Source: Callorhinchus milii (lineage: Eukaryota). Taken from it: a stretch of DNA of 64,000 nucleotides. Numbering within the stretch: the first letter of the stretch is position 1; every line of letters begins with the position of its first letter. Both the position numbers and the translations under genes were made by a program. Shown here in pieces: positions 12,149 to 13,440 of the stretch. The stretch covers positions 84,446,001 to 84,510,000 of the forward strand of contig NW_024704742.1 of NCBI RefSeq assembly GCF_018977255.1, in the 5' to 3' direction. The notes below the pieces were generated by a model. It had not been told where the DNA came from. It did not search any database and saw only the letters and a list, made by a program, of their open reading frames with translations.

Positions 12149-13440
12149 ATGAAGGGTCTGGTGTGTGTCCTGGTGATTGTACTGTTACTCTCTTCTTTTC
12201 CTGGCTCTGTGCTGTCTCAGCACGATGAAGAGCTAATTCATCTGTGTGGCGTGGATTTCATCAGCGCAATCATCAGAGTCTGTAGAGAGGTCAGAATGTC
12301 ATCAGCTAACCAGGAACACAGTGAGTATCAGAAATCAAATTCACTAGTTAATGCTGAGAAACTTTGTGATCATTTAAAATCCAGAAGGACGTCTCAAAGC
12401 GTTTCACAGGGTATTCTGTAAAGTGTAGTGACTGTGTGTATTTTGTAGATAAACACAGCAGCCAATTTGTACACAGCAATGTCCGACAAACAGCCATAAA
12501 GTGAATGACCAGTTTTATTCGGGGGGATTGTTGGTCAGGACACTGGGAGAGACTCCCTGGTTTCCTTCGAGTTGTGCCATTAGATCTCTAATCACTACCT
12601 GAACGGACAGTTGGGACCTTGGTTAACATCTCATCTGAAAGTCAGTTCCCACAGCACTGCTCAGGAGTGTCAACCTAGATCATGTCTGCGACATGCCAAC
12701 TGGGACCACTTTGGGTCTGGAAAGGACCACAGCTAATGCCAACAGCCTCTTGAATGTCACTTTCTTCCACAAATCATGTTCCACTGGAATGAGAGTCCCA
12801 CATCTTGTGGGAGTCCAAACTCATAGTGACTCATGCTGGCTGATCTGCTGAATGGTCCCAGTTTTTATTTCAGAATGAGTCCGTTTGCCTGAGTCGGTAG
12901 CACGATCGAGTTTGAGTCAAAAGCTTGGGGCTTCAAGCCCTACTTTGGCACTTTGAACCTATATTGTTTAAGCTGACACTTCAATAAAGCTCTGAGAGTT
13001 TGATGCTTTGTTGGAGGTCTCATTCTTCGGATGAGATGTTAAATAAAGGCCCTGTCTGCCTGTTCAGGTGGATGTTAAACATAATAATAATAATCCTTGC
13101 ATTTGATACAGCGCTTATCATGTTCGTGCATCCAGCACCTGGAATCCACTTTGATTGCCTTGTAGAGAGACATTTCATGCTGGGATGTGTTGCCTGCAGG
13201 GAGATTCTGAAAATCAAGCTGATGTGCATTTAATTAGTTAATATCAATGGGATTGTTAATTTTGTTTCAGATTCCTCCCCGACCTCAGCTGACAAACACC
13301 ATTCAGAGGAGACGGACAAGAGGAAGAGGAGTGCGGAAATACTTGAGAATGTGAAACAGTACATATCAAGAGATAGTCCATTCCCAAATTGTTGTACGGC
13401 AGGCTGCACCAAAAAAGATCTCAGAAACTTTTGTTTGTGA
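12149..13440 (+). CDS. Relaxin/insulin-like prepropeptide, copy 4 (2 exons, 113 aa)
   Basis: Exon 1 is 12149-12320 (A|gtgagt) and exon 2 is 13271-13440 (tttcag|, TGA). B-chain HLCGVDFISAIIRVC aligns with relaxin-3 LCGREFIRAVIFTC; KRKR processing site; A-chain CCTAGCTKKDLRNFC. Confidence 0.92.

What the first reader, a model, noticed from the sequence alone, without database searches (positions are those of the whole stretch)
12242..12283. All copies have lost the relaxin receptor-binding cassette R-x3-R-x2-I/V
Seen: at cassette positions copy 4 has V-x3-S-x2-I (LCGVDFISAIIRVC), copy 1 has N-x3-K-x2-F, copy 3 has G-x3-Q-x2-F, and copy 2 keeps only the first Arg. None has the GGSRW ending, although copy 1 keeps the Trp five residues after the Cys (CMDQQW). 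Established: these B-chain arginines are needed for RXFP1 binding and the terminal RW for RXFP3/4 activation. Inference: the peptides use a different receptor, act as antagonists, or have a non-receptor function.
Basis: partly seen in the sequence, partly recalled or inferred. Interest (0 to 1): 0.7.

Follow-up and report, generated by a model that had tools for sequence, protein, structure and literature searches.

The report
Elephant-shark relaxin copies lacking receptor arginines
An elephant-shark chromosome carries three intact and one broken relaxin-like hormone genes that keep the hormone's cysteine skeleton but have lost the arginines used to bind relaxin receptors, much like the receptor-less human peptides INSL4 and INSL6, so they probably serve a new local role.

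Summary
The residue-level observation is right, with amendments. The window matches Callorhinchus milii and holds four two-exon relaxin-family genes near TYRP1. None has R-x3-R-x2-I/V or the RW ending, and none has Arg at the second cassette position, which human relaxin-2, relaxin-3, INSL3 and INSL5 all keep. Copy 3 is a pseudogene (donor CT, two in-frame stops), so only three peptides are in question. Copy 2 has an extra residue between its B-chain cysteines, so its 'kept Arg' depends on register. The three intact genes keep all six cysteines (0 of 3000 neutral simulations do) while B and A chains differ far more than signal and early C peptide, the reverse of the usual relaxin pattern; positive selection is suggested but not robust. 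No database protein matched them. Best reading: lineage-specific, INSL4/INSL6-like duplicates of the RLN locus, secreted and acting locally, probably in the reproductive tract, outside RXFP1-4 (site and target inferred). Antagonism is unlikely because the binding residues are those lost. A motif-less stingray relaxin-like peptide is a published precedent. The scan had not noted this on other DNA.

The parts
2511..2685 (-). Copy 1 coding exon 1: signal peptide, B chain (Cys-Cys core 2595-2554, N-x3-K-x2-F, then QQWF and an RR cleavage site), start of C peptide; TATA box at 2732
   Evidence: GT donor
813..1036 (-). Copy 1 exon 2: C peptide, RR site, A chain (CC-x3-C-x8-C at 866-822); precursor 132 aa, intact; AATAAA at 564
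   Evidence: Pfam Insulin E 4e-4, below cut-off; best solved relative relaxin A chain E 0.002
4181..4349 (+). Copy 2 coding exon 1: signal peptide and B chain with C-x12-C spacing (4274-4315), then ATRF and KK
5247..5461 (+). Copy 2 exon 2: C region and A chain (5405-5449); no dibasic site close to the A chain; precursor 127 aa, intact; AATAAA at 5596
   Evidence: Pfam Insulin E 0.016
6431..6575 (+). Copy 3 exon 1 (pseudogene): signal peptide and B chain G-x3-Q-x2-F; splice donor at 6576 reads CT
8154..8326 (+). Copy 3 exon 2 (pseudogene): two stops in the spliced frame ahead of a recognisable A chain (8273-8317) that lacks the conserved Gly
9080..9121 (-). Relic of a further exon 1 (signal-peptide start), weak
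   Evidence: 78.6% over 42 nt to copy 2, E 5e-4
12149..12320 (+). Copy 4 coding exon 1: signal peptide, B chain (12242-12283, V-x3-S-x2-I-R), then REVR; TATA box at 11984
   Evidence: ESM Atlas first hit insulin-family cluster, 0.90; bridged by contigs of 4 runs
13271..13440 (+). Copy 4 exon 2: short C peptide, KRKR site (13318-13329), A chain with 20-residue extension (CC at 13390); precursor 113 aa, intact
   Evidence: Pfam Insulin E 0.019; relaxin A chain E 0.013
13583..14022 (+). Relic of a copy-2-like A chain and 3' UTR, split by a repeat; holds the nearest AATAAA (13933) behind copy 4
   Evidence: 85-89% identity to 5390-5689
40245..47352 (+). TYRP1 gene (approximate coding span), the synteny marker

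Best explanation
A birth-and-death cluster of relaxin-family duplicates, most likely from the RLN-type locus, in a chimaera. Shown: three genes encode secreted signal-B-C-A precursors with all six cysteines; hydrophobic residues are kept at the B-helix positions four and eight after the first Cys while the receptor-facing positions are all changed; copy 3 and two relics are dead. Inferred: copies 1 and 4 are cut at basic sites into two-chain disulfide-linked peptides, copy 2 may stay partly uncut; they no longer activate RXFP1-4; they act as locally secreted factors, most likely in the reproductive tract (sperm, seminal fluid or oviduct), on a partner other than the canonical relaxin receptors, and that interaction drives the turnover of the exposed surface. 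This parallels mammalian INSL4/INSL6 and the motif-less stingray peptide.
For: Gene anatomy and reading frames. Cys omega near 0, p 8e-7; 0 of 3000 neutral simulations keep six Cys in three genes, 3 of 3000 stay free of stops. Mature chains differ at 67/93, 59/93 and 45/93 nucleotides between copies against 47/141, 41/141 and 45/141 in signal plus early C peptide (p 6e-9, 2e-7, 0.014), whereas C peptides are normally the least alike part (PMC551602 passage). A-chain profile is closest to human relaxin-2 (E 1.6e-5) before INSL3 (0.009) and relaxin-3 (0.012). Neighbour is the TYRP1 orthologue on a 139-Mb scaffold; human TYRP1 lies on 9p near the RLN cluster (recalled). RLN-locus duplicates INSL4 and INSL6 have no known receptor, fast B domains and reproductive expression; shark, skate and stingray relaxins came from ovary or testis, and the stingray B chain lacks the motif.
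Against: No expression or receptor data: tissue and target are inferred from precedent only. Third codon positions are also hyper-diverged in the mature chains, and omega of the B chain falls from 2.4 (p 0.01) to 1.1 (p 0.85) once these chains get their own rate, so relaxed constraint fits too. B-chain searches do not single out relaxin (INSL5 0.055, INSL3 0.074; IGF-I precursor first for the exon-1 profile). JAK2 or other tight RLN neighbours are not in the window. A catshark seminal proteome supplement has no 'relaxin', 'insulin-like' or 'INSL' entry (1 file).
Confidence: 0.42

Rival explanations
1. The peptides are hormones for a co-diverged RXFP-type receptor of chimaeras (an extra RXFP1/2-like or RXFP3-like paralogue whose acidic contact residues changed with them).
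For: Basic residues remain on or near the helix face: Lys at the second cassette position in copy 1 and (second-Cys register) copy 2, Arg at the INSL3 Arg20 position in copy 4; Trp (copy 1) or Arg-Phe (copy 2) at the RW place. Copy 4 shares 5 of 11 inter-Cys residues with INSL3 and 5 of 11 with relaxin-3 (read).
Against: The three intact B chains share almost no surface residue with each other (12-15 of 16 differ), which would need several new receptors. The genome could not be searched for receptors.
Confidence: 0.2
2. Redundant duplicates under relaxed constraint: only secretion and folding (signal, cysteines) are kept so that the product is harmless, and the copies are slowly dying.
For: One pseudogene and two relics in 14 kb; B-chain omega about 1.1 with its own rate; 3 of 4 coding variants of copy 4 exon 2 change a residue; no matching protein in databases.
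Against: Three frames stayed open with six Cys over about 1.2 substitutions per site of tree length; TATA boxes, GT-AG sites and poly(A) signals are intact; drift alone does not explain why signal and early C peptide are better kept than the mature chains.
Confidence: 0.2
3. At least copy 1 signals through the insulin or IGF-1 receptor.
For: Copy 1 aligns with IGF-I over RRA-x3-GI-x3-CC (E 0.008) and has two aromatic residues five and six places after the last B Cys, where insulin has its Phe pair (numbering recalled); copy 4 begins HLCG like insulin.
Against: Relaxin A chain still scores first; all intact copies have the relaxin-type Gly in CC-x2-G-C; copy 1 has Lys where insulin needs B12 Val (recalled); no D or E domain.
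Confidence: 0.07
4. The relaxin scaffold was co-opted as a defensive skin or spine-gland secretion.
For: Conserved prepro region with hypervariable, Cys-fixed mature region is the pattern known from venom and defence peptide families (recalled).
Against: No expression evidence; the same pattern occurs in reproductive proteins; no paper on this was found.
Confidence: 0.06
5. The peptides are natural antagonists of RXFP1-4.
For: Loss of the RW ending removes activation of RXFP3/4, and Lys partly mimics Arg in copies 1 and 2.
Against: An antagonist must bind, and the central arginines are the binding residues; copy 4 has Val and Ser there.
Confidence: 0.05

Closest known systems
Mammalian INSL4 and INSL6 (tandem duplicates of the RLN locus, human chromosome 9)
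   Same: Local duplicates of a relaxin gene, Cys scaffold kept, less conserved receptor motif, fast B domain, no known receptor.
   Different: Independent origin in a holocephalan; short precursors (113-132 aa); here the A chain is also much changed; expression unknown.
[quoted passage not shown] 1997; seen only as cited in PMC551602)
   Same: Cartilaginous-fish relaxin-like peptide whose B chain lacks the relaxin motif.
Relaxin-2 / relaxin-3 (RXFP1, RXFP3 ligands)
   Same: Signal-B-C-A precursor on two coding exons, six Cys, A-chain Gly; best A-chain match; copy 4 keeps 5 of 11 inter-Cys residues of relaxin-3.
   Different: Both cassette arginines and the RW ending are missing.
INSL3 (RXFP2 ligand, HxxxRxxVR plus Trp27)
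   Same: Copy 4 shares F, A and the RVC end of the helix; copy 1 has the Trp.
   Different: No copy has the His and central Arg; no copy has both Arg20 and Trp.

Membership tests
Insulin/IGF/relaxin superfamily | Signal-B-C-A precursor with six Cys (B: C-x11-C; A: CC-x3-C-x8-C) | tested here: met
   Copies 1 and 4 exact; copy 2 has C-x12-C; copy 3 has the motifs but is broken
Insulin/IGF/relaxin superfamily | Profile match to PF00049 | tested here: inconclusive
   Single exons 2 score 21.7, 16.6, 16.4 bits against a cut-off of 23; exons 1 score nothing. ESM Atlas first hits are insulin-family clusters at 0.90 and 0.93
Insulin/IGF/relaxin superfamily | Insulin fold with three disulfides | not testable with these tools
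   Spliced precursor could not be folded; see Tried and rejected
Relaxin subfamily | Relaxin-type A chain (Gly in CC-x2-G-C), two coding exons, no D/E domain | tested here: met
   3 of 3 intact copies; relaxin-2 A chain best hit, E 1.6e-5
Relaxin proper (RXFP1 ligand) | R-x3-R-x2-I/V in the B chain | tested here: not met
   0 of 4 copies; motif as
Relaxin-3 / INSL5 (RXFP3, RXFP4 ligands) | Central Arg plus C-terminal Arg-Trp | tested here: not met
   0 of 4 have the central Arg or RW; partial: QW, RF, RM; requirements
INSL3 (RXFP2 ligand) | HxxxRxxVR and C-terminal Trp | tested here: not met
   Only the last Arg (copy 4) or the Trp (copy 1)
RLN locus (JAK2-linked, human 9p24) | Conserved flanking genes | tested here: inconclusive
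   TYRP1 orthologue 27 kb away on a 139-Mb scaffold; JAK2 and nearer neighbours not in the window, genome not held
INSL4 / INSL6 | Orthology to the mammalian duplicates | not testable with these tools
   These arose in mammals, so the relation is analogy, not membership
Insulin / IGF (INSR, IGF1R ligands) | A-chain GIV start, B12 Val, B24-B25 aromatic pair (recalled) | tested here: inconclusive
   Copy 1 has GII and an aromatic pair but Lys at B12; other copies lack the GIV start

The most novel reading that the evidence does not exclude
Cartilaginous fishes have a hidden, rapidly diversifying family of secreted peptides built on the relaxin scaffold (conserved prepro part, hypervariable Cys-fixed mature part) that acts on a new target in semen, egg-case gland or skin; the stingray peptide of 1997 is a member, and the family shows that the RLN locus spawned receptor-orphan duplicates independently in chimaeras and mammals, possibly on the same unknown type of target.
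Probability: 0.25. Interest if true: 0.72.

Novelty: new variant of a known kind. Interest (0 to 1): 0.45.

Why it matters
INSL4 and INSL6 have stayed without receptors for decades. An independent set of motif-less relaxin duplicates in a chimaera gives a second natural experiment at what is probably the same locus, with three small peptides that can be synthesised and tested. The genes matched no database protein, so the relaxin repertoire of cartilaginous fishes is under-counted, and the cluster may be the genomic context of the old stingray peptide. If the peptides prove to be drifting duplicates, the finding is a routine annotation.

Tried and rejected
Whole-genome search for co-expanded RXFP genes or a canonical relaxin: no genome held. 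Protein homologues: copy 4 exon 1, 1 candidate, none at E<=1 among proteins of 49-158 aa; exon-2 profile, 0 hits at E<=0.001 among 1.84 billion representatives; A-chain alignment, 53 candidates, none at E<=10 (weak evidence). So no shark relaxin reference set and no tree of the peptides could be made. Expression: no RNA holder listed for copy 4; this is no evidence either way. B plus A chain complex of copy 4: no answer, score 0.14 against a mark of 0.34. Copy 3 lesions were not checked in reads (the one lay went to copy 4). Earlier scan notes near this place, in look-alike stretches, or by words: none fitting; one search gave an unrelated invertebrate cluster. Literature: searches listed no paper describing this cluster; the supplements of PMC3964593 (1 file) and PMC11083954 (1 file) had no hit for relaxin terms; subscription papers such as Yegorov et al. 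2014 and the stingray paper could not be read and may bear on novelty. Rejected: that the neighbouring TYRP1 is a second paralogue (one chondrichthyan clade); that copy 4 is INSL3 (shared RVC but E 0.074 and no His/Arg); firm positive selection (depends on the rate model); a Prokineticin hit to copy 4 exon 1 (E 0.032, below cut-off).

Full report
What is there. A six-frame motif scan found 4 matches to the insulin-family A-chain pattern in 64 kb, all within the first 14 kb. Each belongs to a two-exon gene with a signal peptide and B chain in exon 1 and a phase-1 intron early in the C peptide. Copy 1 (minus, 2685-813), copy 2 (4181-5461) and copy 4 (12149-13440) have GT-AG sites and open spliced frames of 132, 127 and 113 residues by exon length. 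Copy 3 (6431-8326) has CT at its donor and two stops in the spliced frame before the A chain; this was not checked in reads, but the lesions are separate. Two relics, a signal-peptide start at 9080-9121 (minus) and a copy-2-like A chain and 3' UTR at 13583-14022 (85-89% identical), show repeated duplication and loss. The first exon of the neighbouring TYRP1 gene is 100% identical to a Callorhinchus milii protein.

The observation. Copy 2 has 12 residues between the cysteines and reads R-x3-I-x2-L or T-x3-K-x2-T depending on the anchor. After the second Cys the copies read MDQQWF, DATRF, PENKYW and REVRM, so pieces of the RW ending survive but never both residues. Contigs from 4 of 4 DNA-like runs of one study bridge copy 4 exon 1 with no listed coding difference (3 table rows not shown, one X4 difference unplaced; one run may be the assembly's source); exon 2 shows four variants, three changing a residue in the C peptide or A-chain extension and one silent at a Cys, none a stop.

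Family placement. Single exons 2 match Pfam Insulin below cut-off; ESM Atlas first hits are insulin-family clusters. The exon-2 profile is closest to the human relaxin-2 A chain (E 1.6e-5), then INSL3 (0.009) and relaxin-3 (0.012). B-chain searches are not discriminating. The TYRP1 gene groups with all other chondrichthyan TYRP1 proteins in one starred clade (29 of 120 listed proteins used) and its public model lies on a 139-Mb scaffold. From recall, human TYRP1 is on 9p several megabases from the RLN-INSL4-INSL6 cluster, while RLN3 and INSL3 lie in regions that are microchromosomes in many vertebrates. An unchecked scan note puts RXFP1 64.8 Mb away on the same piece. The RLN locus is therefore the likeliest source, but tight synteny was not shown. 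No database protein matched copy 4 exon 1 or the exon-2 profile, so the genes appear unannotated there.

Selection. In gap-free, Cys-anchored codon blocks of the three intact genes (one extra residue of copy 2 and the unalignable part of the C peptide left out), B chains differ at 12-15 of 16 non-Cys residues, signal peptides at 6-11 of 22. Mature chains differ at 48-72% of nucleotides against 29-33% for signal plus early C peptide (p 6e-9, 2e-7, 0.014). This reverses the usual pattern, in which C peptides are hardly alignable (PMC551602 passage). All six Cys are kept, with synonymous changes at 2-4 of 6 codons per pair; 0 of 3000 neutral simulations keep them. With one shared rate the B-chain omega is 2.4 (p 0.01), but third positions are also saturated, and with a separate rate for the mature chains it is 1.1 (p 0.85). 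The genes are thus under selection for fold and secretion; diversifying selection on the surface is possible, not proven, and gene conversion of the prepro part is an alternative.

How it probably works. Shown: secretion signal, scaffold, hydrophobic residues at helix positions +4 and +8 in all copies, changed residues at +2, +6, +9 and +10. Read from sequence: RR sites on both sides of the C peptide in copy 1; REVR and KRKR in copy 4, which would leave a 20-residue A-chain extension; only KK pairs in copy 2, the last 33 residues ahead of the cysteines. From the literature (passages): relaxin binds RXFP1 through Arg13, Arg17 and Ile20, INSL3 binds RXFP2 through HxxxRxxVR and Trp27 (PMC4561518), RXFP3/4 need the central Arg and terminal Arg-Trp, and loss of B12Arg cuts RXFP3 binding about 110-fold (PMC4939597). 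Canonical agonism and antagonism are both unlikely. Inferred: local secretion in the reproductive tract on a non-canonical target (0.42), by analogy with INSL4/INSL6 and with shark, skate and stingray relaxins from gonads. Rivals: a co-diverged RXFP paralogue (0.2), relaxed decaying duplicates (0.2), INSR/IGF1R ligand (0.07; copy 1 aligns with IGF-I over RRA-x3-GI), defensive secretion (0.06), antagonist (0.05).

What is known. Motif loss is not new in the family: INSL3-6 have a less conserved motif (PMC2805637 passage), the RLN locus duplicated locally in mammals (PMC3310001 passage), INSL4 and INSL6 have no receptor (PMC12702675 and PMC9580368 passages), and a stingray relaxin-like peptide lacks the motif (PMC551602, passages and first part of the Discussion; the original paper was not held). 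Eight literature searches (listings only) showed no description of this cluster; subscription papers could not be searched.

Verdict. Real feature, correctly read, one of four copies dead. It is a new, apparently unannotated variant of a known kind (receptor-orphan relaxin duplicates), with an unusual conserved-prepro, variable-mature pattern. Interest 0.45.

Noticed in passing
window 25201-34017 (+): A probable multi-exon gene for a Ser/Thr-rich single-pass membrane protein (signal exon near 25201, Ser/Thr-rich frames at 27094-27516 and 27944-28324, membrane exon 32743-32862, tail exon 33911-34017) between the cluster and TYRP1; no Pfam match. Its identity would help fix synteny.
   Followed up: partly
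window 40245-40937 (+): The TYRP1 first coding exon runs without an intron over about 230 residues; human TYRP1 has an intron in this stretch (recalled). The elephant-shark branch is also long (0.48).
   Followed up: no
window 13441-14022 (+): The nearest AATAAA found behind copy 4 lies inside the copy-2-like relic, so the copy 4 transcript may run through a dead A-chain copy and a repeat.
   Followed up: partly
window 7130-7970 (+): An 840-bp minisatellite of CCCACAGCCT-type units inside the intron of copy 3.
   Followed up: no
window 57000-60050 (+): About 3 kb of degenerate GT/GGT repeat with extreme G and T skew.
   Followed up: no
window 29919-30308 (-) and about 10300-11800: Reverse-transcriptase fragment (Pfam RVT_1, E 5e-9) and a LINE-like stretch; about 37% of the window is repeated within it.
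   Followed up: no
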